IMG/VR virus record: IMGVR_UViG_3300031760_000017
Length of the DNA stretch: 64,000 nucleotides
DNA from: a virus
Strand: one strand, 5' to 3'
Positions within the stretch are counted from its first letter, which is position 1. Each line of letters starts with the position of its first letter. Below are positions 10,182 through 51,528 of the stretch, in pieces. Under the pieces are notes generated by a model. The model was not told the origin of the DNA and ran no database searches. It worked only from the letters and a program-made list of their open reading frames with translations. The translations under genes and the position numbers were made by a program.

Positions 10182-10189
10182 ATCACCCC

Positions 10190-12810: not shown

Positions 12811-13299
12811 ATGAAAATATTATCATTAGATTTATCAACAAAATCTTCTGGTTGGTGTGTAGGAGAAGATGGAGTTATAAAATCTCACGGATGCATTACC
12901 GCATCATCAAAAGATGTGATTCAAAGAATTATAAAGATGCGGAGTTAGTTATCTGCAATTATATAGAAAAATAAAATAGATAAAATTGTTATGGAATAGG
13001 TACGACCTGACTTTAATTCACATACGAGTAAGGTATTAATGTGGCTTCAAGCAGCAATTGCAATTGCCGCACACTAGATTAATCCGAAGATTTAGTTTTA
13101 GTTCATCGGACCTAGTGAATGGCGTGCCGCATTAAAATTTAAGCAAGGTCGCGGAGTAAAAAGAGATAATTTAAAATCACAAGATATACAATATGTTAAA
13201 GATAAATATAGCACAGATGTAAATGATGACTAGGCAGACGCAATATGTCTTTTTGACGCTTATTCAGAAAAATTTGATAATGAAATAAATTGGGAATAA
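12811..13299 (+). CDS. RuvC-like Holliday junction resolvase, 162 aa, TAG-recoded
   Basis: The N-terminus MKILSLDLSTKSSGWCVGEDG is typical of phage RuvC-like resolvases. Five or more in-frame TAGs. Ends in TAA. Confidence 0.6.
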
Positions 13300-13603: not shown

Positions 13604-16600
13604 TCAATCTATATAACCAACCCATCCTCTATACGGACTACCATATGAATGTCCATCATACCATCTTCCAAGAGCATAACCCCATTCAAAATAAAGAATC
13701 CGAGGAGAACTTGAATCATTTGGATCTGCATGCTCGATCCATATATCTGTAACAATCTGTCCCCAAGAAACTTTTTGATTATCATAAGTAAAATAATCAG
13801 CTTCTAATTCTTCAGTTGAAAGATAATCTGATCTAATTTGTGAAGCAGTCAAATAATCTGATCTAATTTGTGAAGCAGTTAGATAATTTGCATTAAGAGT
13901 TTGAGTAGAAACATAATTTGCTTTAACTTGATTAAATTCTGCTTTATCAGCATATAATGTATCACATTTTATAATCATCTTATCAGTCAAACTTCCAGAA
14001 TAATAACTGTTGGTCATATCACTAGCCATAACAGTATTAGGATCTAACCAAGAGTCACCTGAGCCTCCTATAGTAAAACCATATCCATTTAAGGACTGTC
14101 CACTCATAACCTATCCATAAATTTTCCCAAAATAAGCATCTCCATTTGCGCTAATAGACCAAGAAGGACCAGATATACTACCCTCATAATCAAGAGAAAG
14201 ATTACCAGCTTTTAAATCATAAGTATTAATATTCCATCCGCCTATCTGTCCGGAGCTTGCATTTATCTCGCCTGATAAATTTACATTAGATGCTGTTAGA
14301 TTACCATTATTATCAACAGAAAATCTAGAACCAAGAGCAATTTCATCAGTTCCAATATAAACGCTTCTATTATTTCCTTTTGTTCCAAAAGAAATTGAAC
14401 TTAAATTAGCTGTAAAATCTCCTTTAATAGTCCAATGATTTCCAGATAAATACCCCATTTCTAAAGTCGCAGGTTTTATTGTTCCATTATCTGAATATCT
14501 ATTAGTAAATCTAAAAGAATTTCCTAAAGATAAGCCAAGAGGAGATAAATGAAAACCATCAGCTGTATTAGTTAATTCTGTTTTATTTCCACTATAAATA
14601 CGACTACGATCAGCTTCTAAAGTAATTTTTTGACTATTTAAAGAATTACTTTCAGTACCAATTAATTTAGTACCATTTATAGTCCAACCGCCAATTTGAC
14701 CAGATGTTGCGGTAATTTTCCCACTTAAATCTGTATTAGTAGCAACTAAATTTCCATTAGAATCTACTTTAAAACGTCCTGAACCATATCTTATTTCAGG
14801 TTTTGTTAAATCAATTAATAAACCTTGACCTTTTTCATTACTAGATGTATAATTAGATGGTAAGCCATTTTCATTATAATTTTTCCAAAAATTACCACTA
14901 TATAATAAAGCATGACTAGTACTTGGATCTATTACAATTTGCCCATTGTTAGCTTTTCCAAATAACGCAGAACCATTTTCACTATTTAAAAAGAAAGTTC
15001 TATCACCTTTATTATATCCTAATAATCCAATGTCAGGAGCAGTCTTATCTGGATTTTTAACTTCACCCATTAAAACTCCAGTAAAACTATTATCATTTTC
15101 TTTTTTACCTGCGCCCATTTGCGGAGCTAAGATATAACCACCCTTATCATCTAATTGAATACTGTTGCCATCCCAAGCGTTAATATGAGCTAATCCATAT
15201 TTATTTAATAAGAAATGAATAGGAATATGAATTCTAGCAATAACCTAATTATTATTAACACTTTTAACAGTACATACTAAAGCATTATTAACACACTAGC
15301 CGCTATACCTTGAAGCTGGTCGACATATGCATTGATTCTTTTGTAAATTTTTAGTATAATAACTCTAAGTTAATAACTCTAAATCATGAGAATCGTTATT
15401 ATAAGGAAACTAATCATACTAACCTACTTCAATCTAATGTGTCTGTATTATATTTATAACATCACCATTAACTGAATAACTAAAATTAACTGCATGACTT
15501 CCAGAAACTAATGATATATCTTCCCATTTATTATTTATTTTTTCTTTAATAATAAATTCAAAAGGTTTAGAATTGTCATATTGAGGAGATAAACCATCAG
15601 AACTATACATGACATATCTAAATCCAGTATAATCTTTTAATTCAATTCTATAATTATCATTTTTAACCCATGCAGTTGCAATAGGCAATGTACTATAATA
15701 TGAGTGCTGATTATAAGTTATTGTGCATTTTAGAATATCTGCTAATGTTTGCGTAAAAGTAGTGTCTATTGGATGTGCTGTTGTATTCACATATGAAATA
15801 AGTCCAGTATTAGCATTTACAATATTAAAAGAACTTTCATCAGTAAAATTTGTTTTATAAAAATTCTTTAACATGTTCCAAGTTACAGAACTAGGACTAG
15901 TTACACCATCTTTTGGATTTGCGGCAGTTGAAGTTCCTTCCCAAATCAAATCTCCACTTTGCCATAGCTGAGCTTTAAATAAGGTTTTTCCAACATTAAA
16001 TCCTGCAGTTTGCTACTATCCAGTTCCGCTTGCCGCAAAATTAATAATATAAGAATTAGAATCTCCTATTGCTGTTAAAGTAGGGTAAATAGGTAATATT
16101 TTTGCTGTACTATTTGGAACAATTTTCACAATATATTGGGTCCCATTTGTACCAGGTTCTCCCTATTTTACAAAAGTAAAGTTAGTTTTTGCAACTAAAT
16201 TAATCTACTTATAAGTTACAAATAATTCAATCTGATTATTTAATTTTTTTACATCATATTTTTGTGCAATATCATAAACTAAAGTATCTAAATTTGAATA
16301 ATATCTATAACCTTCCTATTCAACTGCCCATGTTTTATTGTTTTTGTCAACTAATAAAGTATTTTCAATAGGAATTTTCCAAGTAACTTGTCTTTTCTTT
16401 ATATCATCAGTAATATCATTCCCTAAATTATCATATACCTTAAAAGTTAAAGCTAAAATCTATTGCGGATCATCTAAACTTTTACTATTAGGCGCAATAC
16501 CATTCTAATTATATTTATATGATGCAGAGCCATTTTCAATAATTAGTGAATATATATTTTCCGCCTATAAAGAATTACTTAAAGTAATTGAAGCTGTTCC

Positions 16601-18295
16601 TATATAATTATGATTTAAATCTTCTACCGTACATTTAAATATAGCAAATCCATCTATTGCATTAACTTGTAAATCATAAATTTTATTTTTACTTACTCTT
16701 TGTGTATATTTAAAATTAGAAAGAGTAGTTTCATAATTATTTAGTTCTTGTTGTGCTTCATTTTTAAATCTAGTTCCAGCTTGAATACTATTTTTTAATG
16801 ACTGCAAAGCATTATAAGTAGTTGTATAGTTATTATTTAATTCAGTCGTTGTTTCTAAAGCTTCTAATCCACAGTTATTATTTTGCCAAGCCCAATAGTA
16901 ATTATAATTTTGTATATTTTCAACTCCATTTACTTTACAAGTTAATGTTGGATGTCCAATATCATAATAAAATTGAGTGCCACTATCTGACTATATTATA
17001 ATATCTGCCGCATTAGCTTGTAAATTTTGAATTGTGATTTCCTTAGAAATAACTGTATTATCATATAAAACCGCAACTTTTAATTTATTTTCTCTTGCAG
17101 TTGCATCTTCTCGATAAACTATATAAGTACTATCTCCAGGCACCCATTCTATTTGAGGAGCTTGAGTTGCAGTTCCAGGTGAAATAATATTTTTTTCATT
17201 TACACATTTCCAACCGCGTCCTAAATGTTGATTATAATACTAACTATTTGCAAAAATACCAACATTTTCTTTTCCCCAATAGAAAGATAAATTTTGAGAA
17301 TCTGATACTAATTTTCCTTTTATTCTTACCTGTGCGGTAACTATTAATTCTTCTTTTGGAGAAGGATTTGTAGCTTGTTTAAAGAAAATACCTTTTGGAG
17401 TATAAAATGAAATAGATATTCCATTATTTTCTTCATCGCTTTTTCTTATAGCACCTAAAATTTCAACAGAAGAAATAAAGATATTTACTCCATTATCTGT
17501 TGATCTTAAAGGATAATGCTAAGGTGTCCCGGATGCTGAATTAGGAAAATCCTAGCAAAAGATTTCAATAGAATCAATTCTAACAAAGTTTTCTCCATCT
17601 ATTTCAAAAATCTAATATTGTCTAGTATTATGTTCAAATCTATAAGGATTACCTGTCATATTATCTTCATCAAGCGTATAGCTTTTAATTATCTATTTAG
17701 AATTTCCATTAGATTCTAAATTAGAATTATCATTAAATACTAAATTAAAAGTTATACCATAATGACCTTGATATTGTTCCTATAATGGAATAGTATTTCT
17801 TATAGTCATTCCTGCAATTAAAGAAGATGCTTTTTTAATATATTGATTTAAAGCATCATTATCTAATTTTAGCGGTGATGAGCTAACTCCATATTTATAA
17901 ATAACATAACTATATTTCTTATATTTTGTAGCTAAATAATAAATGCCGCTTGTTGTAACGCAATTCTTACCTAATATATCATATGCCTACTATCCAACCG
18001 CTTCAGAAACATAGTTAATTCCAAGTTTCTAAGTTGTACCAAGAATAGTTTTATCTTTGCTCATATCATTTCCTGGAACTAAAATATAAACATATGCACC
18101 TTTAGAATAAGTAATATCTGCCGAACCCGCATACGCAAAAAAAGTTGTATCTTGATAACGACATTTATATTTTCCTATTGTCGCATCTTCACAAGAAATA
18201 ATTTGAGCTTGAATAGTTTTATCATATCCAGCTTTTTTTATTGAATTATTAGTTAATAATTCAATCGCGTCTAAAATTTTCTAATTAACGCCCAT
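13604..18295 (-). CDS. Giant tail-fibre or tail-associated protein, about 1,560 aa, TAG-recoded with about 40 in-frame TAGs
   Basis: The minus-strand ORFs 13604.., 14111.., 15434.. and 16565.. all share one frame and are separated only by TAG. The ATG at 18293-18295 has a GGAGATAAAAG SD. No TAA or TGA was found in the frame. Confidence 0.6.
13821..13940 (-). repeat. Tandem 30-nt coding repeat, about 4 copies, encoding an xYLTASQIRSD repeat
   Basis: Direct repeats of ataatctgatctaatttgtgaagcag. Confidence 0.7.
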
Positions 18296-18383
18296 CTTTT
18301 ATCTCCTTATATCTCTTGTCTTTTATATTATAACATAAATTTTTTATTTCTTCAAACCAGTTTAAAGAATATTATGTTAAATT

Positions 18384-18548
18384 TCATATTTTTCTTGTTT
18401 TTAGAACTCCATCATAATTATATCTAGTTATCTAAAAAAAATCTTGTTTTGAAATTTTTTCTTCTTTAACTAAATTTATCATATCTATGAGTTCATAAGC
18501 TCCACAATTCCATTTTTCTTGAATTTTAATTAAATTAAATTCTTTCAT
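18384..18548 (-). CDS. Small hypothetical protein, 54 aa, one TAG
   Basis: ATG with AAAGGAGA SD. Ends in TGA. Confidence 0.4.
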
Positions 18549-18575
18549 TTATTTCTCCTTTTAAACAATAAAATA

Positions 18576-18604
18576 AGGAAATAGTATTAAAATACTATTT
18601 CCTT
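18576..18604. terminator. Hairpin terminator downstream of the tape-measure gene
   Basis: AAGGAAATAGTATT-AAAA-TACTATTTCCTT. Confidence 0.6.
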
Positions 18605-18611
18605 ATTATTT

Positions 18612-21600
18612 TTATTTTCTTCTCATAGCACGTTGAGCCGCTAAATTAACTAAATCATTTAAAGCTTCTTCAATCTATTGTTTACTATTTACAGCAGGGA
18701 AAGATGCTGAAATCTGAACTTTTTGATCAATAACATCACTAAGAGTTGAAGCTGAATTTAAAGAAAATCTATCAGTAGAGATTTTCCCAATTTTATTTAA
18801 TAAAGATGTTCCTATATTTTTTGTAATAGATCTTAAAATAGAAACACTATTTAAAATATTTCTAGTATCTTCTGAATTTAAAACTAATTCTTTTTCATCC
18901 AATATTGCTAAACGACCTTGTTTTGAATTCCAACTTCCTGTATATCCACCTGTATCATATCTTTTTATTTTTCTATTATAAAGTCCAACAGGATCATTTA
19001 TATTCATATGAAGAACGTCATGATTATCTAAATGTCTAAGATCTCCAACTCTATTGCTATTATAATCATAGACTCCATTATCAGCTCCTCTTCCCCATCT
19101 ATAATGATTTTCTGAGCCATTAGGATAATATGTTTCAGATTCAGGCTCTTCATAAGAAACAGTATCTTGCATTCTGTTTAAAGCATCTTGATAGCGGTCA
19201 GCAGCAGACTACATTCTACTAGCATTAGCTTCTGCATTACTTGCTAAAGCATCTAAAGCCGCTTGAGCTTCATTACTATAATCCCAATCAGCATCCGCCA
19301 TTCGAATCCTCATATCTTCATAAGTCTGCGCAGTTGCCTAAGCTGATGCGGCAGCCTATTGCTAAGCTTGAACGAAATCATATAATTGAGTAACTGCATT
19401 TGCCGCAGCTGTATAAACAGAATCATAATCATAAACAAGAGCTTGAGCAGCATCTCTTAAATCTTGAATAGCAGATAATTCATCAGCCATTCTATTGATT
19501 AAATCATCATTAACTTCAATTAATCCAGTAAATTCATCTATTAAATTATCTACTCCATTTTGAACATCATTTAAATCTATACCAGCAGTATTAGCTAAAC
19601 TATCAAGTTCTTGCTAATAATTAAAAGTAGCCTCATGAATCTCTTCAAAAGCTTCTTGACAAGATGGTATAAAACCGCCCTATCCCGCAACTTTATCAGA
19701 CATCTATTGAATACCGCTATTCCATGCTGGAACTAAATCGCCCATTAGAATACCTTTTTCATCATCTGTCATCTTTTGATAATTTGCAACATCTATGTTA
19801 TAAATTGCGGCAATCTCATTAAAAGCAGATTCAGTTAGATTTTTTCTAATATCAGAATTTTGTTGAGCTTTATTATTAATATATTCTCCATATTGCTCTT
19901 TTAATAAAGCTAGCTATCTAACTCTTTCTTCTTCTGTTAAAGAAGTATCAGTAACTATATCTTTATATTTCTATTGGAAATCTCTCCAAGCAGAAAGCAT
20001 TTCCTATAAATTATTTTGATAACGCTATTTATCAAAATTATATAATTCATTTTGAGCACTAATTAATCCTTGTTCAGCATCAAAAATACCATTTTGATCA
20101 GCAACATATTGATAAGAATAGTTACCTTGTGAATCACGTTTTAATCTTAAAGAAGTTTTACTTGCTCTTATATCTTCTAAAGCAATTCGTGCTTGTTCAA
20201 TTTGAAGCATCTTCTACGCTCTATCTACATCATATTGAGTAATCTTCTATTTATTCTTTAAATTATCTAATTGCTCATCCATAACTTTCTTTAAAGCTTG
20301 TTGATGTTTCAATTGATTTGGATTATTTAATGATTTTTGGAACTTATTTTGTAAATCCTGAAGAGCAAAAGCAGCATTAATTGTATCTAAGTATTCATCC
20401 GCATTTTTATTCATTAAATCCCATTCATCACTTAAATAATCAGTACCTTTTCCGTCTGTAATTTTCTTATCTAGCTAATCAAAAATTTTATCAATAGCAT
20501 TACTGTATTTTTCACTGATTGTTTTTGCGGAAGTTTCTATTAAAGAATTGATTTCCTTAATAGCGTTTTTATAATTTTCTTCAAATTGTTTTGCCGCATT
20601 AGTATCTCCCGCTAATAAAGCTTGCTACCATTCTTGTTTCCAAAAAGCAATCTATTTTCTTAAAGCATCTATTTGATTATTTTGATTTTTTTCTAATTCA
20701 GCATAATAATTTTCCATAGCTTCATAATTTTCATCACCATAAAGCAATTTTAATAAATCCATATCATGCTAAATTAAATCATTAATAAAATCATAATCAT
20801 CTTGTTGTTTCTCAAATTGTTTAGAAATATCATCAATAGTATCTAAATAAGCTTTATCAATATCCGCAATTAAATCTTCAATATCCTACATTTGTTTCAT
20901 TAATTCGGATAAATCACTTTTTAAATCCGCCATAGCTTGTGCTTTATTATTACCATAAATTGCGGAAGTTCCTTTTTTATCTATATCTTCTATTTCTTTA
21001 CGAGTATTTAATAATTGCTATGTTAATTTTTGAACAGTACCTATTGAACCATTTATATTAAAGAAAGAATCTAAATCCATAACATTTTTAGTAGCATCTT
21101 TAAAAATCTTATCGAAATCAGTATCTTTCATAAAATCAGTTTTATTAATTACATTTCTTACAAACTAATTCCAATCTTTTGCAGCTTCGCCCATCTATAA
21201 TCGAATTTCAAGCTACATTCTAAATTTTTTAATATTAATTTCAATCTACTTTTGGGCAATCTATTCAATCTAATCTACTATATCTTCCATGCTATTTCTT
21301 AAAGAATCATAATCTTTAATTTTAGCTTGAGTATTTTTTAAATCTTCTTGAGCAGATTGCACAGCTTTATCATAAGCTGAAATTTGTTTATCTAATCCTT
21401 CTTTATAAGTTTTATCAGTAGAAGCATTATAAGATTCAATTAAACTATTCTATTCATTTATTAATCTATTAACCGCATCTTGTTTAGCTTGTAATATAGA
21501 CATATAATCATTTATATTTCCATATTCATCAAAAGTAACTCCTAATGAATTTAGAATTTGCTGTTGATTAGCTAAATCTTGTCTTTGAAGCTATTGCTTT

Positions 21601-24600
21601 TCTTTTAATTTTCTTTTTTGAGCTTCTAATATTGCGGTTTGTTTATTTAAATTATCAAGTAATTGTTTACCATATAATTTATCTTGAATTTTTTGAGTTC
21701 GCTCTAAATCACGATTAATTTTCTTTATTTCAATGTCAATATCGTGATATAAATCTTTCTCTTGCTCTATTGGCTTTTTAGTATTTTTAGTAGAAGTATT
21801 AGTATTATCTTTTGCAGTTTTATCTGCTGCTTTTTGAGCTTTTTCAGCCTCAGCTTTTCTCCTTGCTTGACCCTTTGCTCCAGCGCCATTAGCAGATTTT
21901 TTATATTTAAAACCACCACCAGAAGTTTTATGTGCGGAAACAACTTTTAAAGCAAATGCAGTATGCTATTTAGTTTCCGTATCATCCGCAGGAACTGTTT
22001 TATAACGAATAGTAGGCACTCTATATGTTACCTAACTTCCATCTATGGGGTTTACACCAGTAACTTCTCTATTTGTAACTTCAGCTTCTGCGCCAGTGTA
22101 CTGAACTGTATCTTGCGCAGTTGTTTTTTGCTAGATGATTTCAGCATCTACACCCATAGAAGCTAAATAATCTGTTGCTTGTTTTGCTGTCATATTGGCA
22201 GCATTTACCATATTACTTAATTCTTTTAAGAATCCTTCATTATCCAATGAAGCTCCGATTTTTAAATCCTATAAATTTTTACCCTAATAATATAATTCCA
22301 TTATATCATCAAAGTCTTTCTTAAAAGCTTCTGTATCTAAATGAATTTGGGTAGCAATATCTTGTCCAGCTAATTGCATTAATTGATCATAAGCTTCTAC
22401 ATTACCATCAATTGCCGCCTTCATTAATTTTAAATTCTCAACATTTGTTAAGAAATTATTAGATAATGACTAACCATCTAAATCAAGTAAATCAGCATAA
22501 GCATCTCTTAATCCAGAAATTGCCTATGATTGTTCTTGCCAAGAGCCACTTTGTAAAGCTCCTAGCCAAGTATCATAATTATCAACAACATCTTGAATAG
22601 CATTATCAAATCTTAAAATTGATTCAGCAAGTTCTTCCGCACCTTCACGATCCTATTTTAAAACTTTTGATAATTCTTCACTTTGCTATGATAAACTTTG
22701 AATATCTTTAGTAAGATTTGCATAAGCTGTCTCATCAACATCCGAATCTGTTGGAAACATAGCATCATGTAACTGATGAGCAAGTTTTTCTTCTTCCTAT
22801 TTTAACTAAGCAGTCCTATCACTTAAATCTTTAGTTTGATCACCTACTTTAGCAACAGCATCATAAATCTACTTTACTATACCTGGAAACTCCTAAAGCC
22901 ATTCTTTTGATTTTTGTTGCTTTTCAATAATAGCTGTCCATTCATTTATAATAGGCTAAGTGGCTCCATCTGTATCTTTTAAATATTCAATTTGTTTCTT
23001 TAATAAATCAAAATCAGCATGATTATTTTGAAGAGCTCTATTATCTAATTCATCATAATCATACTGTTTCTAAGATAATAATTGAACTCTATTTAATTCA
23101 GATTCAATCTAGAATAAAGTATTTTTAAATCCTTCTAATTTTAAATTATTAATAAGTGTATAGAACTATTCTGCATCTTCAGTCATTTTATATGACCCAT
23201 TAGCCATCATAGTAAAGAAAGATTGAATCTAAGGAGCTAAATCTCCAAATTCAGTTTTTGAAACGCTCTTTCCACTTCTAACTTGATCTTCAAGAGACTG
23301 ATAAAAAGCATAATTCTCTGCAGCGTCTCCCTGCATAGCAGAAATTTCTTTTATATTAGAAAAATCTGCATGTGAGATATTATCAACAACATTACCTAAA
23401 GTATCCCAGTTAGAAAATATTGATGGAGAAAGTTCAAAAGCTTTAAATAATTCCTCTAAATGTTGTTCATCTAATTCAGATAAATTTTTAATTATTTTAT
23501 CCGGAATTATTCCTGATGCTTTTTCTTGAATTTTATCAATAATTTTACCAATTTCATTATATTGATTATAAAGTTGAGACTATTCAGTAAGAAGATATGA
23601 ATCAGCTAATTCTTTTGCAGTTGTATCTCCTACAAATTCACCCTGCTATTCTAAAGCTGCTTGTAATTTTTGTCTTTGTTGTAAAAATTCTCCAGCATTT
23701 GTTACATTAGAAAAATCAAGGACGCCATGAGCTTCTTTTGATAATCCTATAAAAGCTGCTTGATTTTCATTAACATCTTTCGAAGCGTTGTCAAAAGCTT
23801 CCATCTATTCTGCTGAATCTGCAACCCATTGTGTTAAATCTTTATACCATTGAGATTGTCTCTATTGTTCGCTTAAAGTTTTGCTTAAATCTTCAACAGC
23901 TTTTTTAACTCTAGGATACATTATTAACAAGGACTATAAATTATAATCAACTTTATATTCAATAGTTCCATTATCTTGTTGGCGAAAACCATTTTCACTT
24001 AATATCTCTTTAGCTTCATCGCTCATTCTATTGCTACCAAAAGATAAAGCATAATCAATTTGATTGTCTTCACCAAGTGAACCTTTTACACCACGTTTTC
24101 CTTGAAGTTCAAAAGAGCTCCATAGGTTTTGTTTTGCTGCTTCATACTATTCTTTACTGGAATTATATTTTTTCTAAGCTTCTTCAGCTTTTAATTCTTT
24201 TAAAGTTTGAATTAAATTATCATAATTATTACGTAATCTATCTGCCGCATCGCCTTCAAGACCATATTGATTAATTAAATCTTCTATTCCTGATTTTAAA
24301 TCAGATCTTGTAATCTAGCCTTCTTTATATTTTTGATTTAGCTCTTCAATAGATTTATATAATTCTTGATTTCTACTTAATTGTTCTTGAAGTGTATTTG
24401 CTTCCTAAATAACTGATTCATTATGTTCAATTTGTGCTTTTCTAGCCTATTTACTTTTATTTATTAAAAAACCGAGTGCTGTTACAGCAGCTAATGCAGC
24501 TGTAATAAAAGCTCCTAATGGAGTAATTGTAATAACACTATTAAGAAATTGAATTTGAAAACCTGCTTCTGTTGCAGCAGCACCTATAGCACCAAATGAA

Positions 24601-27263
24601 ACGGCCTTAGCTCCATTAGAAGTAATAACAGCTGCCGCTTCTGCTGTACTCTTTCTAAATTGATAATTTAAAAGATTAGTTGCTTTTCCAACAGCCCCAA
24701 TTCCTTTAATTAACATTGGTAATGAAAAAGATAAATTTGTAACAATTTGAAGTATTCTTTGTCCAGTAGATAAATCCTGATTTTTCCAAACACTTCCTAA
24801 ATGTTGAATTTGTTGAATAGAAGACCCAATTCGAGCAAGACCTGCAGCAGCTTTTGCATATTCCTCAATTCTAACAGCTCTGTCTTTATTTGACATCTCC
24901 CCATTAAAATCGTTTTGTTTTGCATTCATTTGACCGCGCAATTTCTACAATTCAGGAACAATTTTTGGATCATTATAAACCTATTTAAAAATTTTTTCTA
25001 TTTTTGTTTTAATTTCATTACCACTAGTTTCTGTTATTTCTGCTAATTTATCAAAAAAATCTTTAAATTTTTGAAAAGTTTCTTCATTTACACTTTTAGA
25101 AAATCTTTTAGGTAAATCTTCATATAATTGACCAATCTCTTCAATAGCTTTTTGAGTTTCTTTAGAAAACTATTGATTACTAGTCATTTCATCAAAAACT
25201 TCTTTAAGATCTTTTGCTCCTAATCGTAAAGTAGTAAAAAAACTTCTTATGCCATCTTGCCCTACTTTATCAAATATATTTAAAAACTTTTCAGTTGATT
25301 GAGAAACAGACTCAGTTGATTCTTGAAATTCATCATATTCTTGCTAACATTTTTCTAGCATATTTAATATTTCATCAATTTTTTCAGGCTTTCCAACAAT
25401 ATTTTCTAATTTTGTCGTACCTAACTCTTGTCCTGAAATTCTATCTATTAACTATTCTAAAGGTTGTTTTTGTTTAACTAAAGTTTGAATCTAATTTCCA
25501 ATATTAGTAATATCATTTAATAATTTTTGTGCTCCTTGAAATTCTTCTGGAGACATCATTCTTGATAGTTCTAATAAATGTTCTCTATCTTTTAATAAGC
25601 TTTTACTTACTTCATCTAATTCAGGAATTCCTTGCCAATCTTTTGTTGCTTGTAAGGCATTATCAAATTCTCTAGCATTACTATTTGCAATCTCAAGGTT
25701 AGTAATAGTTGTATTTATTCCTTTAGCAATTTGTTCACTAAAAACAGCAACCCCAATAGCTCCAAGAGATTGTAATAATGCCTTACCTCCGCCTAAGCCA
25801 TCAATAAAGTTTGCAACAAAAACTGCAACACCCGATAATGCATCAGTTATACTCTTTATAGAATCAACATCAATTAAACTATCATATACATCTTCAACGG
25901 AAGCTTTTAATTGCTTTAAATGCGCGGCAGTTGAATCCATATATATATCTTGTTGCTTTTGTAAGGTACCTGCTGCATTTTGCGCTGTATTTAATGCTTC
26001 ATTATATTCTTCAAAATTATCAAATAAAGCAAGTAAATTATTATATTGTCTTTGACCAGCCATTGTTTGAGCTAAATAAATTTGCTGTTCACGAGTTAAA
26101 TCATCCCAACGACCGCCAATTTCTTCCATAACTTCGCCCATATCACGAAGATTTCCATTCATGTCAAGAACATTAAAACCAAGTTGTGCCATTTGACTAG
26201 AATATCTACCAAGAGTAACTCCATCTTCATCAATTCCAGCTTTAATATCACTAATACGAGCATAAACAGTTCTTAAAGCTGTACCAACACTCTAAGGAGC
26301 TTGTCTTGTTGCAGAAATAATAGTTGATAACTGTGCAGCTAATTGCTATTCACTAACACCCATTGTGGCGGCCGTACTTGCAACTTTACCCATACCTTTA
26401 CTTAATTCTTCAAGATCTGATGCGGTTGTTGCAGCAACAGCAGCTAATCTATCAATATATATCTAAGCCTAATCCGCATTAACCTTATAACCATTCCAAA
26501 CGGCAGTTAACTGTTCAGAAACGTCTGCTGTTGATTGATTTGTAACATTTGCTGTTTTTAATGTAATTGCGGTTCTAGCCTAAATTTCTTTATCTGATAA
26601 ACCCTGTTGAGCATAAATTAAAGCAGCATTAGTGTAATCTACTGTTGTAGTGCCTAGTTGTTTGGCTGCATTATTGGCTTGCTCTGCAAATCTTCCCATT
26701 TCATCAGCAGTCTTACTAGTAACGATTCTAATATCATTTAATGAAGTATCTAATGATTTAACATATCCAACTGCTTGTTGAATAGTACTAGTGAAACCAC
26801 GAAATACAGTATTAGCTAAATTATATTTTGCAACATTAACAAAAGTCTAAGCAAATTTATCAAGCACTTGATGAGTTTGCTTTAATTCTGCATTAACACT
26901 TAATACATGAGACGATAAATTTCTAAAAGCATTCTCACCAACAGCACCGCTCTTAGAAAAACTTTGATAGACTTTTTCTATTGAAGTTCCAGATTCATTT
27001 AATGACTTATTAAAACTTTCAACATTTGTAGTATTTAATTTTGCATTAAAAGCAGCTCTTAATGCTTTCTATACATTTCCAGCCTATTTCTGAATTGCTA
27101 TTAAATCGGTTTTAGCTGTATCAAAATCAGAATTATTTATTTTCATCATATCTTTTATAGTTAAATTTTGAATCTCTTTTAAAGATTTTTTTAACTAATT
27201 TAAACTCTGTTTTTGAATGTCAAAACCAATAGAATAGATAATATCTCCACCCTTTTTTGCCAT
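18612..27263 (-). CDS. Tape-measure protein, TP901-like core. Giant at about 2,883 aa, TAG-recoded with about 90 in-frame TAGs
   Basis: Track ORFs 18675.., 20025.., 24447.. and 25491.. are all in one frame. The ATG at 27261-27263 has a GGAGATAAAAGG SD. The TAA stop is at 18612-18614. The core motif is LGFNVLDMNGNLRDMGEVMEEIGGRWDDLTREQQIYLAQTMAGQRQ. Confidence 0.7.
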
Positions 27264-32741: not shown

Positions 32742-33263
32742 ATGAAAGCTGTAAAAGACCTTGCAGAAATGAAGCGACAGAAAGCTGATATTGAAAATCA
32801 GGCTGAGCTTTATAGAATTCAGCGTCAGAAAGAGGAAGCTGAAGCTGAAATGCAGTATAAAGAAGCTATTCAGGTTAAAAAGCGTGAAGCTGAAGCTGCA
32901 GCAGCCCAGGCTAAGAAAGACCTTCAGGAAGTTCTTAATGCAATCCAGACCGCTGAAGTTGCAAGAGAAAAAGAGAAGCATGCGGCAGAAGTTGCTCATG
33001 CAAAGGAACTTGCGGAAATTGAGAAAGCTAAGCAGGAAGCTTATGCTGCAACCGTAAAAGAAATTATGAGTTCTATCTCTCCTGACCTTGTTGCCGCAAT
33101 CAGCGCTAGCTCGAAAGCAGACCTTCTTAAAGAAGGTATGAAGAATATGTCTCCTTATGCAATCGCTAATGGAGAATCTGTTGCAGATACTGTTAACAAG
33201 CTTATGAGAGGAACTTCTCTTGAAGATGTCCTTGATAAAGCTTCTCCAAAAATTAATTTCTAA
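32742..33263 (+). CDS. MVP cap-helix-like coiled-coil domain. Probably the C-terminal part of an 829-aa read-through fusion with 30774..32741
   Basis: EA-rich coiled coil followed by ...SPDLVAAISASSKADLLKEGMKNMSPYAIANGESVADTVNKLMRG. Compare human MVP ...[46 protein letters not shown]. Confidence 0.45.
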   Translation: MKAVKDLAEMKRQKADIENQAELYRIQRQKEEAEAEMQYKEAIQVKKREAEAAAAQAKKDLQEVLNAIQTAEVAREKEKHAAEVAHAKELAEIEKAKQEAYAATVKEIMSSISPDLVAAISASSKADLLKEGMKNMSPYAIANGESVADTVNKLMRGTSLEDVLDKASPKINF

Positions 33264-37097: not shown

Positions 37098-39383
37098 ATG
37101 ACATAGAAAGAATTTATTTAGAAAGTAAAAAATCCATGTATAAATGCAACAAATATAATCGGCGGTTATCTTCCCAGCGTATTAATTGGACAAATGTGTT
37201 TATAGACTGGTTACGGAACTGGATATAATTGCGAATTATTAATGCAATGGAATAATTTGCTTGGAATGAAAACTTAGTTATTAAATGACACTTGGAAATC
37301 TAAATATTGGAATGGCAAATCCGCAACTAAAAGAACTCCAGAGTATTATGGTTACCATACAACTATTACAGATTCATTCAGGGTTTATGATAATATTTAG
37401 CAATGTGCATGTGACTATTTACAATTTATGCGCGATGCTAAATATTCTAAAAACGGAAACTATAAATATAGAGATGTTTTAACAATAAAAGATCCAACTC
37501 AACTGATTACTCAAGTATCTAAACGAGGATATGCAACAGATCCAGCTTATATTACATCTGTCATGAGTATTATTAAAAAATATAACTTAACTCAATATGA
37601 TTCAAATGGAGGGAATAAACCTATGACATTAAAATAGGCATTATCAAAACTTGGTGTTAATTTAATTAATAGAATTAGTCAGAATAGAAGCCAAGTTCCT
37701 GCTCATAATGCAAATTCACACCAATATTTTGCTGTTCACTACCTTGGTGTAAATGGTTAGAATCCAGACCTATATGGCGGCGGATATGGTGGACATTTTT
37801 ACGTAAGTAAAGATGGTAAATGCTATCAAGCCGCGGAAGTAACTGATAAACTTTGGCATGTAGGTGCTTCTTCAGGATTCTCTTATATTCATTCTTATGC
37901 AAGAAATAATAATACAATAGGAGTTGAATGCGGAACTTACACAGCTTCTGGAAGAAATAATGATAATGAGACATGGTATTTTACAGAAGCCACTCAAGTA
38001 ACTGCCGCAAAATTAGCAGCAGCTGTACTTACTGTTTATAATTTACCTATGGATCATTTATTAAGACATGGGGATATTACAACTAAAAATTGTCCATCTC
38101 CATTAAAAAGAGACCAGGGTAAAGGTAGCAACTGGACTTGGGATAAATTTAAATCAGAAGTTTCTAAATATATGGCTCAATTAGGAAATGAATCCGCTCC
38201 AACTGTTACTATTCTAAAATTAGGAAGTAATGGAAAATAGGTTAAAGAATTACAAGAAAAATTATTACTTTTAGGATTTGTAGATTGTGCTTATTACAAT
38301 AAAAATAGAAATTTCGCAGATGGTGATTTTGGATAGAATACTTTAAAATCATTAAAATATTTCCAACAAGCAAAAGGATTATAGGTTGATGGTATTTATG
38401 GACCAAAAACCGCAGAAGCATTAGATAAAGCCGTTAAAGAAGCAAAAGCTTCAAAATTTGATGTTACAGTAGATGAATTTTTAAATAATGCAAAAATTAT
38501 TGCAAAAGAAAATAAAGAAAAAGGCTTTAAATATGGTAATGCTTGTTGCTTACCTTCAGTTTATCCTTTTGAAAAAATAACATCTTGTGATAGATTTGTC
38601 GATCAAGTTTTATATAAGAGTGGATTAAAAACTGTTGGTAATCGCGGTTTTACTGATTTATAGGATTGTTTAATTAATCTTAAAGCTCAAAAAATTTATC
38701 GAGAATCTTAGTTACAAAAAGGTGATATTGTATATACAATTGGACATGTATTCATTCTTGGAAACAAAATTTCTAATACTACTTATTAGAGATACGATGC
38801 AGGTTCTGTTGAAAGAATCCAATTAACTGGACCTTATGCTAGCTATAAATCTCAGCCTTTTGTTGAAGAAATTGACCTTTTCACTTTTGCTTATAGATTA
38901 CCTTTTAAAACAAAAGAAGAAAAGAAAGAAAAGACTTCAACATTTTTAAAACTTGGTGATAATAGTGCATCAGTTAAACAAATGCAAGAAAAATTAATTA
39001 AACTTGGATATTTTGTAGGCACAGCTGGTGCGGATGGCGATTTTGGTCAAAACACATTAAAAGCATTAAAATATTTTCAATCTAATCATGGATTAACCGC
39101 AGATGGATATTATGGTCCACTTGCTAAACAAAAATTAGAAAGTATCTATAATAAAATTAAAAATTATGATACACCTACTAAACATGATAATTTAATTAAA
39201 GAGAAAATTTTTACAACAACAGACAATTTAAATTTACGTAAAGGTTCTTCAATAGCACATGAAATTATACTTTAGATTCCAAAAGGAGCAAAAGTAAAGT
39301 GGTATGGTTATTATACCGGATCTTGGTATTATGTAGTTTATAATGGAAATATTGGATATGCATCTTCTCATTATTTAAAATAA
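37098..39383 (+). CDS. Multidomain endolysin, about 761 aa, TAG-recoded with about 17 in-frame TAGs. It has a glucosaminidase-like N-terminus and an amidase_2/PGRP domain. Two PG_binding_1 repeats and a CHAP/NlpC-like region follow. A C-terminal SH3 domain completes it
   Basis: A single frame joins track ORFs 37428.., 38049.. and 38982... Motifs HGDITTKNCP (amidase_2) and ADGDFG.NTLK.LKYFQ (PG_binding_1, two copies). SH3-like C-terminus. Ends in TAA. Confidence 0.7.
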
Positions 39384-40058: not shown

Positions 40059-40826
40059 ATGAAATATATATTAAAAAATGGTTAGTAGATAGAGTCCATT
40101 GATATTGGAAAGGCTAATATCAAAATAGGGCAAAGAAATAATCGACTTACTATTTGTGATAGAGCGCCTAATACAAAATCAAAAAAAGCACGTATAATTT
40201 GTTTATGTGATTGTGGACAATACACAGTTATAAATCATCAAGATTTTAAAAATGGACAAGTTAAAAGTTGTGGATGCTATGCAAAAGAAATACATGCTGA
40301 AATAGGAAGAAAAACTGCTATAGATTTCACTCAATCATAGTACAATAATAATCCATTTTATGAATATATTGAACCTACAGATGTTAGATTTAATTGGAGT
40401 AAACAAGTAGTATGGAAGGTTAAATGTAGAAAATGTAATAAAGAATATTTAGCAATTCCTAAAGAATTAATTTCTATAAATAATAATAAGCGTATGAATC
40501 CTTGTAATTGTTGGAAAACTTATAGTATTGGAGTTCAACGTATTATTGCAATATTAGAAAAAAATAATATTTCTTATGAATTAGAAAAAAAATTTGATAC
40601 ATGTATTTCACCAAAAGGAAATTGTTTACCTTTTGATTTCTATCTTCCTGATTATAAGATTTTAATAGAATATGATGGACAACAACATTTTAATATAGCA
40701 TTTGGTCAAAATGAAAATAAATTGATTCAACAAAAAAAATATGATAAAATAAAAAATGAATGGTGTAAAAATAATAATATTCATTTAATTAGGATACCTT
40801 ATTATCAAAAAGAAATTACAATTTAG
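40059..40826 (+). CDS. Putative homing endonuclease-like protein, with a Zn-ribbon and a PD-(D/E)XK-like EYDG region. TAG-recoded with 3 TAGs
   Basis: Continuous frame from the ATG at 40059 through track ORF 40494... Consecutive TAG TAG at codons 9-10. Confidence 0.35.
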
Positions 40827-40848
40827 AATTTAATAGGAGAAAAAATTA

Positions 40849-49146: not shown

Positions 49147-50091
49147 ATGGTTGTATTAACAATAATAGATATTATTATTTTTTGTGTTGCGATAGTATTA
49201 ATTCATAAAGCTGATTTAAAAAAAGTTAATATCGCTAAATAGCAATAGAAGAAACAACAGTTAATCAATTAGATTAAATAGTTATCTGATACATACAATG
49301 ATTATAATTTAAAAATACAAAACATCCTTCAAGAAACTCAAATTGTTAAAGCTAGAGCTGAAGAAACAACAGCTAATTATATTGCTAATCAAAAACAAAT
49401 AGCACTCGATTATATTAATAATCAATAGCAATTAGCAGAACAAAAAATTAAAGAAATAAATGCTAATACTTAGCAAGAAATTGCGGCAATTCATGAAGAT
49501 CTTCAAAATATTAGGTGTTCTGCCGCACAATAGAAAGAACAAATTCAAAACGAGCTTAATAAACTAAAAGCCTCTTTGAGTGCGGGCGTAGAAGCCCGCC
49601 TTCGCGAACAATAGAAAAAAGATAAAATTAATTTTTATAAACTTTCTATTAGTGATGCGGATTTAGCTGATGTTAAAATGCTAGAAAATTTAAAAGCATC
49701 TTTCCATAAACCTGTTGTTTTAAGTAAACTTATTTGGACTCAATATTTTCAAAAGCAAATGACTGAATTGTGTGATAGAGTACTTGGTAAAAAAACTGTT
49801 TGCGGCATTTATAAAATTACCAATTTATTAACAGAACAATGTTATATTGGTCAAAGTGTTAATATTAGTGATAGATGGAAACAACATTGTAAATGCGGCC
49901 TTGGTATAGAAGCATCAGCTACCAATATTTTATATAATTCAATGCAAAAAGATAAAGTTTGGAATTTTACTTTTGAATTATTATAGGAGTGCCCGCGTAA
50001 TTTACTAAATGAAAAGGAAGCTTTTTGGATTGATACTTATAGTAGTAATATATATGGATTAAATACTATGAAAGGAATTAATAAAAAATGA
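49147..50091 (+). CDS. TM plus Q-rich coiled-coil protein fused to, or followed by, a GIY-YIG nuclease domain. TAG-recoded with about 9 TAGs
   Basis: The frame is continuous from the ATG at 49147 through track ORF 49678... Motif GIYKITNLLTEQCYIGQS. The TAGs sit in Q-rich contexts (Q*Q, NNQ*QLAEQ, AAQ*KEQIQ). Confidence 0.45.
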
Positions 50092-50942
50092 AATTTTAGA
50101 ATACAGATGTCTGGGGATTTTAGCATGCAATCAGGGGTATGAGAAATCCTAAAAATAGCTGGAATAAAAGTGATAGTCTTTTTGAAATTGCTTATATCGA
50201 ACAAATGGAGGCTGATTGGGAAGTCGCTTCAAGTTATGTCGATGCAAATGAAAAATATGATTTTTAGAGTGAATATGATAAATATTATGAAGCACAAGAA
50301 AAATATGCGGATTGGCTTCTTAAAAATGGTGTTTTAAAAGATCAAAATGAATGTTTTAGTTATGCTTTTATTGGACCAAATGATATGAAACTGGCTCAAA
50401 CTCTTATTAAAGCTGGTCCTGAACACCGAAAATTTCTACGCCAAATCTTTGTATCTGTTGATATTACTGCACCACTTTATTGGTGGAAATAGATGGATCA
50501 ATATAAAATTGGGACAGTCACAGATAGCACATCAACTATGCATAAACTAACGAGTAAACCTATTACTCTTGAAAGTTTTGAAATTGATGATTTTAATCCA
50601 GAAATTGTATATTACGAAATTCTTGATGCTCAAAATGATATTGGTATGCTTGCGGATTTTATAATTGAACAACTTGAATTTCTTCGTCAAAAATATCTTG
50701 AAACAAAAGACAAAAGATATTGGAAAGAATTAGTACGATGGTTGCCTGAAAGCTGGTTACAAAAAAGAACATGGACTGCAAATTATGAAGTTCTTTATTC
50801 TATAGTTTTACAAAGAGGGCATCATAAATTAGAAACAGAATGGGATAAAGGTTTTATACATTGGTGCGCCTCATTGCCATATGCAAAGGATTTGATTTTT
50901 TATGGAGAAGAACGAGAAAAAATATATAATTTATATGCATAA
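50088..50942 (+). CDS. Hypothetical protein, 284 aa, 3 TAGs
   Basis: The frame is continuous with track ORF 50493... ATGA overlap with the upstream gene. Confidence 0.4.
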
Positions 50943-51528
50943 AAATAAAATTAATAATAAAATGTATATAGGACAAACTTGCCAAAATCCACCATCAAAA
51001 AGATGGAAACCTTGTAATTATAAAGGATCTTCAAGATTTTATAATGCTATTTTAAAATATGGTTGGATTAATTTTGAACATATTATTTTAAAAAAATGTT
51101 CTTCACTATAGGAAGCAAATTAGTAGGAAAGAAATTTTATTAGTCAATATCAAACTACAAATCCAGAATTTGGATATAATATTATGCCGGGTGGCTCTAA
51201 TAAAGAAATTCCTTTATAGGTTCGAGAAAAAATGTCTAAAAATCATAGAGATGTTAAGGGGAAAAATAATTATTTTTACGGAAAACATTTTAAAGGTAAA
51301 GAACATCCATTTTATGGACAACATCATTCGGATGAAACTAAACAAAAATTAAAAAAATCTTTATTAAATAAAAATGGAAAAGCAGTAAAATGCATTGAAG
51401 AAAATAAAAATTTTCCTTCCGCAAGAGAAGCTGCAAGATATTATAATATGAAAACTTCTAGTCACATTTCTGCATGTTGCAATGGCAAAAGACAAACTGC
51501 TAATAAATTTCATTGGGAATATATTTAA
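50902..51528 (+). CDS. GIY-YIG homing endonuclease with NUMOD-like C-terminal modules, TAG-recoded
   Basis: KMYIGQT...ILKYG GIY-YIG region. The frame joins track ORFs 50902.. and 51232.. through 4 TAGs. Confidence 0.5.

What the first reader, a model, noticed from the sequence alone, without database searches (positions are those of the whole stretch)
37098..39383. Internal evidence that TAG is read as glutamine
The endolysin contains two paralogous PG_binding_1 repeats. In copy 1 the motif reads ADGDFG[TAG]NTLKSLKYFQ. The independently diverged copy 2 reads ADGDFG[CAA=Q]NTLKALKYFQ, so TAG occupies exactly the Gln position. Elsewhere TAG clusters inside Q-rich runs, for example NIAK*Q*KKQQ, NNQ*QLAEQ and AAQ*KEQIQ at 49147..50091, and YN*Q*EL in the tail gene. 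The TAG-to-Gln reassignment is the commonest known in phages, and a Gln tRNA sits in the array as a possible evolutionary source for a suppressor.
Basis: partly seen in the sequence, partly recalled or inferred. Interest (0 to 1): 0.6.

Follow-up and report, generated by a model that had tools for sequence, protein, structure and literature searches.

The report
Phage reads TAG as glutamate
This phage does read the stop codon TAG as an amino acid, but comparison with relatives points to glutamate rather than the expected glutamine, a meaning for TAG that I could not find reported for any phage or bacterium.

Summary
The sequence observation holds. The lysin ORF 37098..39383 has 14 in-frame TAGs, and TAG 38334 sits where the second PG_binding_1 repeat has CAA.

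- In 112 distant lysin homologues, TAG columns are mostly Glu. One is the GH73 catalytic Glu (E in 111/112). Gln is never the top residue.
- The integrase gives the same answer.
- "Q" in close database homologues is a code-15 translation of their own TAGs, so it is not evidence.
- With real codons from about 150 related phage loci, TAG fills 14.4% of cells in conserved-Glu columns and 0.3% in conserved-Gln columns (right arm: 2.1% vs 0.05%).
- The same test gives Gln in a sister clade, so it can tell the two apart.

The window's source contig carries a tRNA(CUA) 4.9 kb left of the window, next after tRNA-Glu. It has the tRNA-Glu features C1-G72, A73, U11-A24 and extra U20a/U20b. It lacks the tRNA-Gln features U1-A72 and G73.

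Best reading: TAG means Glu (about 0.85). The suppressor is probably charged by host GluRS and not amidated by GatCAB. A minority of TAG-to-CAR exchanges at variable sites leaves some Gln insertion possible. Proteomics is needed.

The parts
37098..39383 (+). Endolysin gene, 761 codons with 14 in-frame TAG, ends TAA. Domains: GH73 glucosaminidase, Amidase_2, PG_binding_1 x2, unassigned middle domain, SH3_3.
37203..37205 (+). TAG at residue 36, in the GH73 motif L-X-T-G-Y-G. This is the catalytic general-acid Glu position.
   Evidence: E in 111/112 distant homologues. Aligns with E of ALETGWG in FlgJ 2ZYC/3VWO; chain 3K3T reads ALATGWG at that same aligned position, which I take (from memory) to be the catalytic-Glu mutant. 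TAG is kept in L001, L004 and L086.
37398..37400 (+). TAG at residue 101; aligns with Glu of FlgJ (YDSYEQAF).
   Evidence: GAA in relative L004
37758..37760 (+). TAG at residue 221 in Amidase_2, a conserved acidic position.
   Evidence: E87/D20 in distant homologues. GAA in L086, whose lysin is 97% identical.
38202..38426 (+). PG_binding_1 repeat 1 (residues 369-443), with TAG at residues 381, 413 and 429.
38334..38336 (+). The site is variable.
   Evidence: CAG in L001, GCC in L004
38934..39140 (+). PG_binding_1 repeat 2 (residues 613-681), with CAA 39048..39050 at the position paralogous to TAG 38334.
396..1395 (+). Right-hand end of a 24-gene tRNA array: Gln(UUG) 396-468, Gly, Arg, Cys. The array continues left of the window and there includes tRNA-Glu(UUC) and the suppressor tRNA(CUA), at L093:3536-3609, about 4.9 kb before window base 1.
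3779..7672 (+). Two structural (tail-module) genes, 3779-5752 and 5756-7672, with 11 and 15 TAG. They are the main source of the conserved-column test.
7690..8703 (-). Tyrosine integrase with 10 TAG. TAG columns score as Glu.
12811..13299 (+). RuvC-like Holliday junction resolvase, 7 TAG.
13604..27263 (-). Tail protein (13604-18295, 26 TAG) and tape-measure protein (18612-27263, 71 TAG).
49147..51528 (+). Sites such as 49147-gene residue 280 and 50088-gene residues 4, 12 and 135 are GAA/GAG/TAG-only in more than 30 relatives.
58423..60204 (+). RecJ-like DHH exonuclease, 8 TAG. Residues 238, 294 and 322 alternate among TAG, GAA and GAG in relatives.

Best explanation
The window comes from an SPbeta-like phage of a low-GC Gram-positive host, with a genome of roughly 135-140 kb. 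In this phage TAG is a sense codon, and it most likely means glutamate.

Shown:
- About 200 in-frame TAGs sit in late, lysis, recombination and homing-endonuclease genes. Replication genes have none.
- No TAG-free gene ends in TAG.
- The phage's own contig encodes a tRNA with anticodon CUA.
- TAG occupies conserved Glu positions, including a catalytic Glu, and avoids conserved Gln positions.

Inferred mechanism:
- The suppressor keeps the body features that GluRS reads (U11-A24, an unpaired 13/22 pair, U35, A37), so the host's glutamyl-tRNA synthetase charges it with Glu.
- It has C1-G72 rather than U1-A72 and carries extra U20a/U20b bases in the D-loop. The amidotransferase GatCAB therefore does not convert Glu to Gln, and Glu is inserted at UAG.
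- Early genes avoid TAG, so they can be translated before the suppressor accumulates. Lysin, tail and mobile-element genes can be completed only afterwards.

A sister clade of the same phage family uses TAG as Gln. The amino-acid meaning appears to have switched within the family.
For: 1. Lysin against 112 homologues below 60-65% identity. E is the top residue at 7 of 14 TAG sites (pos 36 E111/112; pos 221 E87/D20; pos 60 E89/D15). Q is top at none. The column log-odds for TAG are E +18.5, next D -2.6. Controls come out right: CAA gives Q, GAA gives E, AAA gives K, and so on.

2. TAG 36 and TAG 101 align with Glu in solved FlgJ GH73 structures; at the position of TAG 36, chain 3K3T has Ala in place of that Glu.

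3. Integrase against 120 homologues. TAG scores E +13.4, D -0.9, and Q is not in the top four.

4. Real codons, 13 genomes of the window's clade. Of 44 conserved-E columns, 33 hold TAG (82/568 cells). Of 24 conserved-Q columns, 1 does (1/313). Fisher 1e-8 on columns.

5. Right arm, up to 69 loci. E columns 23/121 (110/5182 cells), Q columns 1/50 (1/1959 cells).

6. Window-only tally. Where at least 80% of relatives' sense codons agree, the residue is E at all 10 TAG sites. At the 60% level the counts are E 16 and Q 3.

7. Positive control. The same test gives Q (26/1080) over E (3/1715) in sister clade B.

8. Empirical substitution likelihood at 30-65% identity favours E over Q by 96-150 log units.

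9. Close relatives at 93-96% amino-acid identity. TAG exchanges with GAA 4-5 times per pair and with CAR 0-2 times. Lysin residue 221 is TAG in the window and GAA in the 97%-identical L086.

10. The suppressor tRNA(CUA) is in the window's own contig, next tRNA after tRNA-Glu(UUC), with Rfam tRNA score 62.8 bits. Its identity positions match phage tRNA-Glu and differ from phage tRNA-Gln. CUA tRNAs of other, more distant relatives (not tested for TAG meaning) are Gln-like.

11. GatCAB requires U1-A72 and rejects U20B (PMC2811023). GluRS body determinants are listed in PMC9976931.
Against: 1. TAG exchanges with CAG/CAA more often than real GAA codons do.
- Window against L001 lysin region: 5 CAR, 0 GAR.
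- Window against L086: 3 CAR, 1 GAA.
- 3 of 24 window TAG sites with a 60% majority are Q-majority.
- I attribute this to the TAG-CAG transition at Glu/Gln-tolerant sites, or to leftovers from an ancestral Gln assignment. It could also mean that some Gln is inserted.

2. GluRS reads the anticodon strongly (U34, U35, C36 in E. coli; modified U34 in B. subtilis). CUA keeps only U35, so charging by GluRS is not guaranteed.

3. The suppressor has a 5-nt variable loop, not the 4-nt loop typical of tRNA-Glu.

4. Whole-sequence similarity and isotype HMMs built from phage tRNAs do not place it with any isotype.

5. A composition regression (change in TAG count against change in E or Q count) was uninformative.

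6. Relatives are phylogenetically non-independent, so the cell-level p-values are inflated.

7. The host is unknown, and no protein-level data exist.
Confidence: 0.85

Rival explanations
1. Standard phage code 15. TAG is read as glutamine by a tRNA-Gln-derived suppressor.
For: - The paralogous repeat has CAA opposite TAG 38334.
- Exchanges with the closest lysin relatives are mostly TAG-CAG/CAA.
- A few sites are Q-majority in relatives.
- Code 15 is the only TAG meaning reported for phages.
- A sister clade of this same family does use Q.
Against: - Conserved-Gln columns almost never carry TAG (1/24 and 1/50), while conserved-Glu columns often do (33/44 and 23/121).
- The catalytic Glu of GH73 and other invariant acidic positions are TAG.
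- None of the lysin's strongly conserved Gln positions (32, 109, 244, 300, 386, 423) is TAG in the window, L001, L004 or L086.
- The suppressor lacks U1-A72 and G73, and its D-loop has the extra 20a/20b bases absent from most of the phages' tRNA-Gln.
Confidence: 0.06
2. Ambiguous decoding. The suppressor is first charged with Glu and only partly amidated, or is charged by two enzymes, so UAG yields a mixture of Glu and Gln.
For: There is a strong Glu signal together with a Gln signal above background. In the broader clade-A set, TAG fills 1.9% of cells in conserved-Q columns against 0.3-0.5% for other residues. TAG-CAR exchange is frequent at variable sites.
Against: TAG is essentially absent from strictly conserved Gln columns, so Gln cannot be a major product where Gln is required. 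The tRNA carries both known GatCAB antideterminants. The TAG-CAG transition bias alone can explain the excess.
Confidence: 0.08
3. TAG is not reassigned. The TAGs are real stops in pseudogenes or split genes, assembly errors, low-level read-through, or pyrrolysine codons (ARAGORN labels the tRNA 'Pyl').
For: ARAGORN's automatic label for any CUA anticodon is Pyl.
Against: - About 200 TAGs lie in frame in essential genes, with domains continuous across them.
- The same pattern occurs in dozens of independently assembled relatives.
- TAG sites are conserved or exchange with Glu codons.
- The tRNA scores as a full-length Rfam tRNA (model positions 1-71, 62.8 bits) with an ordinary ARAGORN cloverleaf, rather than the atypical tRNA-Pyl shape as I recall it.
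- No Pyl genes were seen in the window.
Confidence: 0.01

Closest known systems
Code-15 (TAG to Gln) amber-recoded phages: crAss-like, Lak, phAss-1/'Phassvirus' and others (Borges et al. preprint 10.1101/2021.08.26.457843; Peters et al. PMC9523058; PMC10607447)
   Same: - The phage infects a host presumed to use the standard code.
- It carries a phage-encoded tRNA(CUA) within a large tRNA array.
- In-frame TAG is concentrated in structural and lysis genes and absent from early replication genes.
- TAA and TGA remain stops.
- No phage aminoacyl-tRNA synthetase is evident.
   Different: Here TAG aligns with Glu, not Gln, and the suppressor has tRNA-Glu features rather than tRNA-Gln features. Borges et al. 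state that they observed only TAG to Gln and TGA to Trp in such phages.
Ciliate nuclear codes with UAG as Glu: peritrich code 30 (UAA and UAG to Glu) and Oligohymenophorea sp. PL0344 (UAA to Lys, UAG to Glu; 10.1101/2022.12.16.520718)
   Same: UAG has the same amino-acid meaning.
   Different: These are eukaryotic nuclear codes of whole organisms, with altered termination machinery. In peritrichs UAA is reassigned too. Here only UAG is reassigned, within a virus whose host presumably still terminates at UAG, and the reassignment is gene-class specific.
Sister clade of the same phage family (loci L016-L026, L040 from IMG/VR)
   Same: Homologous tRNA-array-linked DUF2828/DUF7788 gene at about 65% identity, large tRNA arrays, and in-frame TAG in many genes.
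   Different: In that clade TAG sits in conserved Gln columns (26/1080) and not in Glu columns (3/1715), and TAG-CAG is the dominant recent exchange. No CUA tRNA was found in that clade's fetched loci. The Gln-like CUA tRNAs (G73, weak 1-72 pair, short D-loop) come from other, more distant relatives whose TAG meaning I could not test.
Indirect Gln-tRNA pathway: non-discriminating GluRS plus GatCAB, which discriminates tRNA-Gln from tRNA-Glu (PMC2811023)
   Same: The two features GatCAB uses to reject tRNA-Glu are exactly where this suppressor differs from tRNA-Gln: the absence of U1-A72 and the presence of a supernumerary U20B.
   Different: These determinants have not been shown to act on a CUA-anticodon tRNA. 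The host and its enzymes are unknown.

Membership tests
Amber-recoded phage with suppressor tRNA (general kind) | Many in-frame TAGs in essential genes; coding density is restored when TAG is read as sense. | tested here: met
   Coverage rises from 0.63 to 0.90 and the longest open stretch from 782 to 2888 codons. The lysin domains are continuous across 14 TAGs.
Amber-recoded phage with suppressor tRNA (general kind) | Phage-encoded tRNA with anticodon CUA. | tested here: met
   There is none inside the window. One is present in the window's own contig at L093:3536-3609, which overlaps the window identically over 13,014 nt.
Amber-recoded phage with suppressor tRNA (general kind) | Recoded codon enriched in late and lysis genes and avoided in early genes. 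| tested here: met
   There are 0 TAGs in gyrB, gyrA, ligase, DnaB, helicase, RNA ligase and others. There are 14-71 in lysin, tail and tape-measure genes. All genes end in TAA or TGA.
Genetic code 15 (TAG = Gln) | TAG aligns with Gln in homologues that use the standard code. | tested here: not met
   Glu dominates and Gln is never the top residue in lysin or integrase. Conserved-Q columns hold TAG in 1/24 and 1/50 cases, against 33/44 and 23/121 for conserved-E columns.
Genetic code 15 (TAG = Gln) | Suppressor tRNA with tRNA-Gln identity: weak U1-A72 pair, G73, and a D-loop without the extra 20a/20b bases. | tested here: not met
   The suppressor has C1-G72, A73, U11-A24 and D-loop AGUGGCUUA. 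Of the phages' tRNA-Gln genes, 67/74 have G73 and 68/74 have a U-A or A-U first pair.
TAG = Glu reassignment | TAG occupies conserved Glu positions and exchanges with GAA/GAG among close relatives. | tested here: met
TAG = Glu reassignment | Glu is physically incorporated at UAG (peptide evidence), or the suppressor is charged with Glu. | not testable with these tools
   This needs LC-MS/MS or in-vitro aminoacylation.
Pyrrolysine decoding | Atypical tRNA-Pyl shape and pylS/pylBCD genes; TAG at Lys-like or specific sites. | tested here: not met
   The tRNA matches the full-length Rfam tRNA model (positions 1-71, 62.8 bits) and folds as an ordinary cloverleaf in ARAGORN. No Pyl genes were found among the window proteins scanned. 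TAG columns are Glu.

The most novel reading that the evidence does not exclude
This would be a previously unreported viral or prokaryotic genetic code, UAG = glutamate. It arose inside a family of SPbeta-like phages whose sister clade reads UAG as glutamine. The meaning of the same captured stop codon would have been switched by remodelling the suppressor's first base pair and D-loop, the two elements that decide whether Glu-tRNA is amidated by GatCAB. Public gene callers translate these phages with code 15. They therefore write Gln at about 2% of residues in late proteins, including catalytic glutamates.
Probability: 0.6. Interest if true: 0.9.

Novelty: new variant of a known kind. Interest (0 to 1): 0.8.

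Why it matters
Stop-codon recoding in phages is currently treated as having two meanings, TAG to Gln and TGA to Trp. Annotation tools hard-wire code 15 for any amber-recoded phage. If TAG is Glu here, several things follow.

- The range of natural codes in viruses is wider than assumed.
- The amino-acid meaning of a captured stop codon can change between sister clades. That makes the path of codon reassignment directly testable.
- It points to a simple molecular switch: evasion of GatCAB by a GluRS-charged suppressor.
- Database proteins for this large group carry systematic Glu-to-Gln errors at functionally important sites. The group has hundreds of contigs in IMG/VR, ENA and Logan. Clusters P0001-P0008, for example, show Q at the GH73 catalytic residue.
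- A natural Glu-inserting amber suppressor would also interest people working on genetic-code engineering.

Tried and rejected
- **INPHARED search.** Nucleotide searches with the lysin gene (blastn) and window 1-12000 (megablast) found no match.
- **Using database homologues at face value.** Rejected. Close homologues are full length only because they were translated with code 15. Their DNA has TAG where the protein shows Q.
- **Composition regression** of change in TAG count against change in E or Q count across orthologue pairs. Noisy and confounded by D-to-N drift, so uninformative.
All scores were about 0.65-0.72 and not diagnostic. There is no sign that the suppressor is a recent copy of the phage's own tRNA-Glu or tRNA-Gln.
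- **RecJ protein-level tabulation.** Ambiguous, because nearly all hits are recoded relatives. Resolved only with DNA.
- **Searches that returned nothing usable.**
  - The search for related loci with 10190-11011 found nothing.
  - The PDB search with the resolvase found nothing.
  - An exact-protein look-up with the wrong start codon (1464) failed. The correct start, 1491, found the source contig.
- **Pyrrolysine and pseudogene readings.** Rejected (see rival explanations).
Full report
**1. The observation**

The ORF 37098..39383 (+) is 761 codons long, ends in TAA and contains 14 in-frame TAGs. Pfam finds GH73 glucosaminidase, Amidase_2, two PG_binding_1 repeats and SH3_3 in one frame across those TAGs.

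The two repeats align at 54% identity. TAG 38334 lies opposite CAA 39048. So the description is correct.

**2. TAG is a sense codon**

- Reading TAG as sense raises the share of the window covered by open stretches of at least 100 codons from 0.63 to 0.90. The longest stretch rises from 782 to 2888 codons. Reading TGA as sense does nothing comparable.
- About 200 TAGs lie in structural, lysis, integrase, resolvase, RecJ and GIY-YIG genes.
- Replication genes (gyrB, gyrA, ligase, DnaB, Dda-like helicase, RNA ligase) have none.
- Every gene ends in TAA or TGA.
- Independently assembled relatives show the same pattern.

**3. A circularity trap**

The protein database returns full-length lysin homologues at 67-91% identity with "Q" at most of the window's TAG positions. 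Their DNA does not translate to those proteins under table 11, and it has TAG at those places. Those Qs are a code-15 convention of the gene caller, not evidence. Only residues other than Q in database proteins, or real codons in fetched DNA, can be used.

**4. Which amino acid**

(a) Lysin against 112 homologues below 60-65% identity:
- E is the commonest residue at 7 of 14 TAG sites. Q is commonest at none.
- Residue 36 is E in 111 of 112. Residue 221 is E87/D20. Residue 60 is E89/D15.
- A Codetta-like column score gives TAG = E (+18.5; next is D at -2.6). It recovers the right residue for the CAA, GAA, GAG, AAA, GAT, GAC, AAT, TAT, TCA, TTA and TGG controls; CAG, with only two columns, was undecided between E and Q.

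(b) Residue 36 lies in L-X-T-G-Y-G. It aligns with the Glu of ALETGWG in FlgJ structures 2ZYC and 3VWO. Chain 3K3T reads ALATGWG, with Ala at that very position; I take it (from memory) to be the catalytic-Glu mutant. Residue 101 also aligns with a FlgJ Glu.

(c) Integrase against 120 homologues: TAG scores E +13.4, D -0.9, and Q is not in the top four. Controls are right.

(d) Real codons, left arm. In three structural genes across 13 genomes of the window's clade:

| Columns where at least 80% of sense codons agree | Columns | Columns holding TAG | TAG cells |
|---|---|---|---|
| Glu | 44 | 33 | 82/568 (14.4%) |
| Gln | 24 | 1 | 1/313 (0.3%) |
| Every other residue | - | - | at most 0.6% |

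(Fisher 1e-8 on columns.)

(e) Real codons, right arm (48-62 kb), with up to 69 IMG/VR loci. Glu columns hold TAG in 23/121 cases (110/5182 cells). Gln columns do so in 1/50 (1/1959 cells). Several window TAG sites are GAA/GAG/TAG-only in more than 30 relatives:
- 49147-gene residue 280
- 50088-gene residues 4, 12 and 135
- RecJ residues 238 and 294

(f) Window TAGs alone. 62 of 198 have at least 4 informative relatives.
- Plurality residue: E 25, Q 8, K 8, D 5, N 4.
- Majority of at least 60%: E 16, Q 3.
- Majority of at least 80%: E 10 and nothing else.
- Control: GAA columns give E 209, CAA columns give Q 80.

(g) Empirical substitution likelihood at 30-65% identity favours E over Q by 96-150 log units.

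(h) Positive control. In a sister clade (L016-L026, L040) the same procedure gives Gln (26/1080) and not Glu (3/1715). There the recent exchanges are TAG-CAG. The method can therefore see Gln where it is the answer.

**5. The signal that points the other way**

Against the closest lysin relatives the exchanges are mostly TAG with CAG or CAA:

| Relative | Amino-acid identity | CAR exchanges | GAR exchanges |
|---|---|---|---|
| L001 | 94% | 5 | 0 |
| L086 | 97% | 3 | 1 |

The single GAA case is residue 221, the conserved acidic site. The CAR cases (135, 195, 199, 413, 424, 628) are all at sites that vary among E, Q, K, A and T in distant homologues.

In the right arm, relatives at 93-96% identity show TAG-GAA 4-5 times per pair and CAR 0-2 times. 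Other close pairs in the clade are E-dominated: L015/L030 has GAR 15 and CAA 1, and L008/L072 has GAR 5.

My reading is as follows. TAG to CAG is a transition, and most synonymous differences are transitions. TAG to GAG is a transversion. So at Glu/Gln-tolerant sites the Q route is mutationally favoured. Leftovers from an ancestral Gln assignment are an alternative. Some real Gln insertion cannot be excluded. It cannot be large, because strictly conserved Gln columns avoid TAG.

**6. The suppressor**

The window holds only the last four tRNAs of an array. An exact-protein look-up with the corrected start (1491) found the source contig, ENA ERZ27256908 k141_3321089, 84,156 bp. Locus L093 is identical to the window over 13,014 nt.

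The contig carries 24 tRNAs. One is a tRNA(CUA) at L093:3536-3609, 4.9 kb left of window base 1. It is the next tRNA after tRNA-Glu(UUC) and is a full-length Rfam tRNA at 62.8 bits.

Its sequence is CGCCCGAUAGUGGAGUGGCUUAACACAGCGGUCUCUAAAACCGCGGAUCCUGGGUUCGAAUCCCAGUCGGGUGA.

| tRNA set | First pair (1-72) | Position 73 | 11-24 pair | D-loop |
|---|---|---|---|---|
| This suppressor | C1-G72 (and G2.U71) | A73 | U11-A24 (G13/A22 unpaired) | AGUGGCUUA, with U20a and U20b |
| 11 CUA tRNAs of this clade | strong pair | A or C, never G | U11-A24 in 11/11 | two extra bases in 10/11 |
| Phages' own tRNA-Glu | - | A73 in 21/23 | U11-A24 in 14/23 | extra bases in 23/23 |
| Phages' own tRNA-Gln | weak U-A or A-U in 68/74 | G73 in 67/74 | C11-G24 in 51/74 | no extra base in 48/74 |
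| CUA tRNAs of other, more distant relatives (TAG meaning not tested) | U1.U72 or U1-A72 | G73 | - | shorter (none or one extra base) |

 In this clade the alignments and the tRNA anatomy agree on Glu. The Gln-like CUA tRNAs come from relatives whose TAG meaning I could not test, and the clade shown to use Gln (L016-L026, L040) had no CUA tRNA in its fetched loci.

**7. Mechanism**

Shown: a dedicated tRNA(CUA), the gene-class distribution of TAG, and Glu-like column statistics.

Inferred:
- The host's GluRS charges the suppressor. In most Bacillota this enzyme is non-discriminating and already tolerates C or G at position 36. This rests on established knowledge, not on a test here.
- GatCAB recognises U1-A72 and is blocked by a supernumerary U20B (PMC2811023). 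It therefore leaves Glu on the tRNA.
- The weak point is that GluRS normally depends on U34 and C36 (PMC9976931).
- No synthetase or release factor was seen among the window proteins scanned.
- The regulatory logic, late genes translatable only once the suppressor is present, follows Borges et al. and fits the TAG distribution. It is not tested.

**8. Comparison with what is known**

The system works like code-15 phages in every respect except the amino acid and the tRNA type. It therefore fails membership of code 15 on two defining features.

UAG = Glu is known in ciliates: peritrich code 30 (from memory) and the ciliate of 10.1101/2022.12.16.520718, whose title says UAA and UAG code for different amino acids. 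The only hits for my glutamate-reassignment phrases were ciliate or non-phage papers.

In the searchable literature phage TAG is reported only as Gln. Isotype predictions for phage suppressors list Gln, Trp, Ile and Tyr, not Glu. The library is incomplete, so a report could have been missed.

**9. Caveats**

- Relatives are not independent samples.
- Alignments of fast-evolving tail genes are imperfect.
- The host is unidentified. One RecJ homologue is labelled Candidatus Onthovivens. The SPbeta markers YorF, YorH and YonG appear in relatives' annotations.
- Nothing here measures the protein.

I put TAG = sense at 0.97 or above. I put Glu as the main meaning at about 0.85, and the GluRS/GatCAB mechanism at about 0.5.

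Noticed in passing
window 1491-3014, 8913-10181, 30774-33263, 33779-35017, 52237-53238 versus 18612-27263, 37098-39383, 58423-60204: There are two codon dialects. TAG-free genes encode Gln almost only with CAG (30774-33263: CAA 1/CAG 26; 1491-3014: 0/8; 33779-35017: 0/9) and use more GAG. TAG-rich genes use CAA and GAA (tape measure CAA 166/CAG 17; lysin 24/3; RecJ GAA 35/GAG 0). This may reflect host versus phage tRNA pools, or avoidance of codons one transition away from TAG.
   Followed up: partly
window 28277-29851 and 30774-33263: A Band_7 (stomatin-like) protein is followed by an 829-aa protein with major-vault-protein shoulder and Vault_3 domains. The pair is conserved in relatives. This is unusual cargo for a phage.
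   Followed up: no
window 1491-3014: A DUF2828/DUF7788 protein lies immediately downstream of the tRNA array in all 80 related loci fetched, at 50-98% identity and without TAG. It may have an RNA-related role.
   Followed up: no
window 8913-10181 (-): A CotH kinase-family protein, TAG-free, with relatively high GC.
   Followed up: no
L041:1115-1206, L047:6279-6368, L054:3072-3160, L055:4585-4675, L083:6908-6998: In more distant relatives the CUA suppressor tRNAs carry a 20-22-nt variable arm but have G73 and a weak first pair. They could be type-II-like suppressors with a different meaning, or tRNA-Gln-like genes with an insertion.
   Followed up: no
L013:6561-6635; L016:4411-4484, L017:902-975, L020:3526-3599, L024:4337-4410: There is a tRNA with anticodon UUA (it would read TAA) in a clade-A relative. 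There are also tRNAs that ARAGORN draws with a four-base anticodon 'taaa' in the Gln-using clade. These may be further recoding, or prediction artefacts.
   Followed up: no
L014:8425-8702; L071:7-349: Phage-encoded tmRNA genes sit within the tRNA arrays of relatives.
   Followed up: no
window about 63358 to the end; L089:14936-20035: In the window's own contig the DNA polymerase III alpha gene is split into 750-aa and 617-aa parts by a GIY-YIG gene. Relatives L090-L092 have it intact at about 1318 aa.
   Followed up: no
window 42712-43452, 49147-50091, 50902-51528 (also 40059-40856): Several homing-endonuclease-like genes (GIY-YIG; the 50902 homologue also matches NUMOD3 in L089) each carry TAGs. 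One lies between gyrB and gyrA. Presence and absence differ among close relatives.
   Followed up: partly
protein clusters P0001-P0008 (lysin), P0241-P0360 (RecJ-like): Public protein records for this phage group are code-15 translations. They show Q at the GH73 catalytic position, and many Qs fall in columns where the window has GAA. If TAG is Glu, these are systematic database errors.
   Followed up: partly
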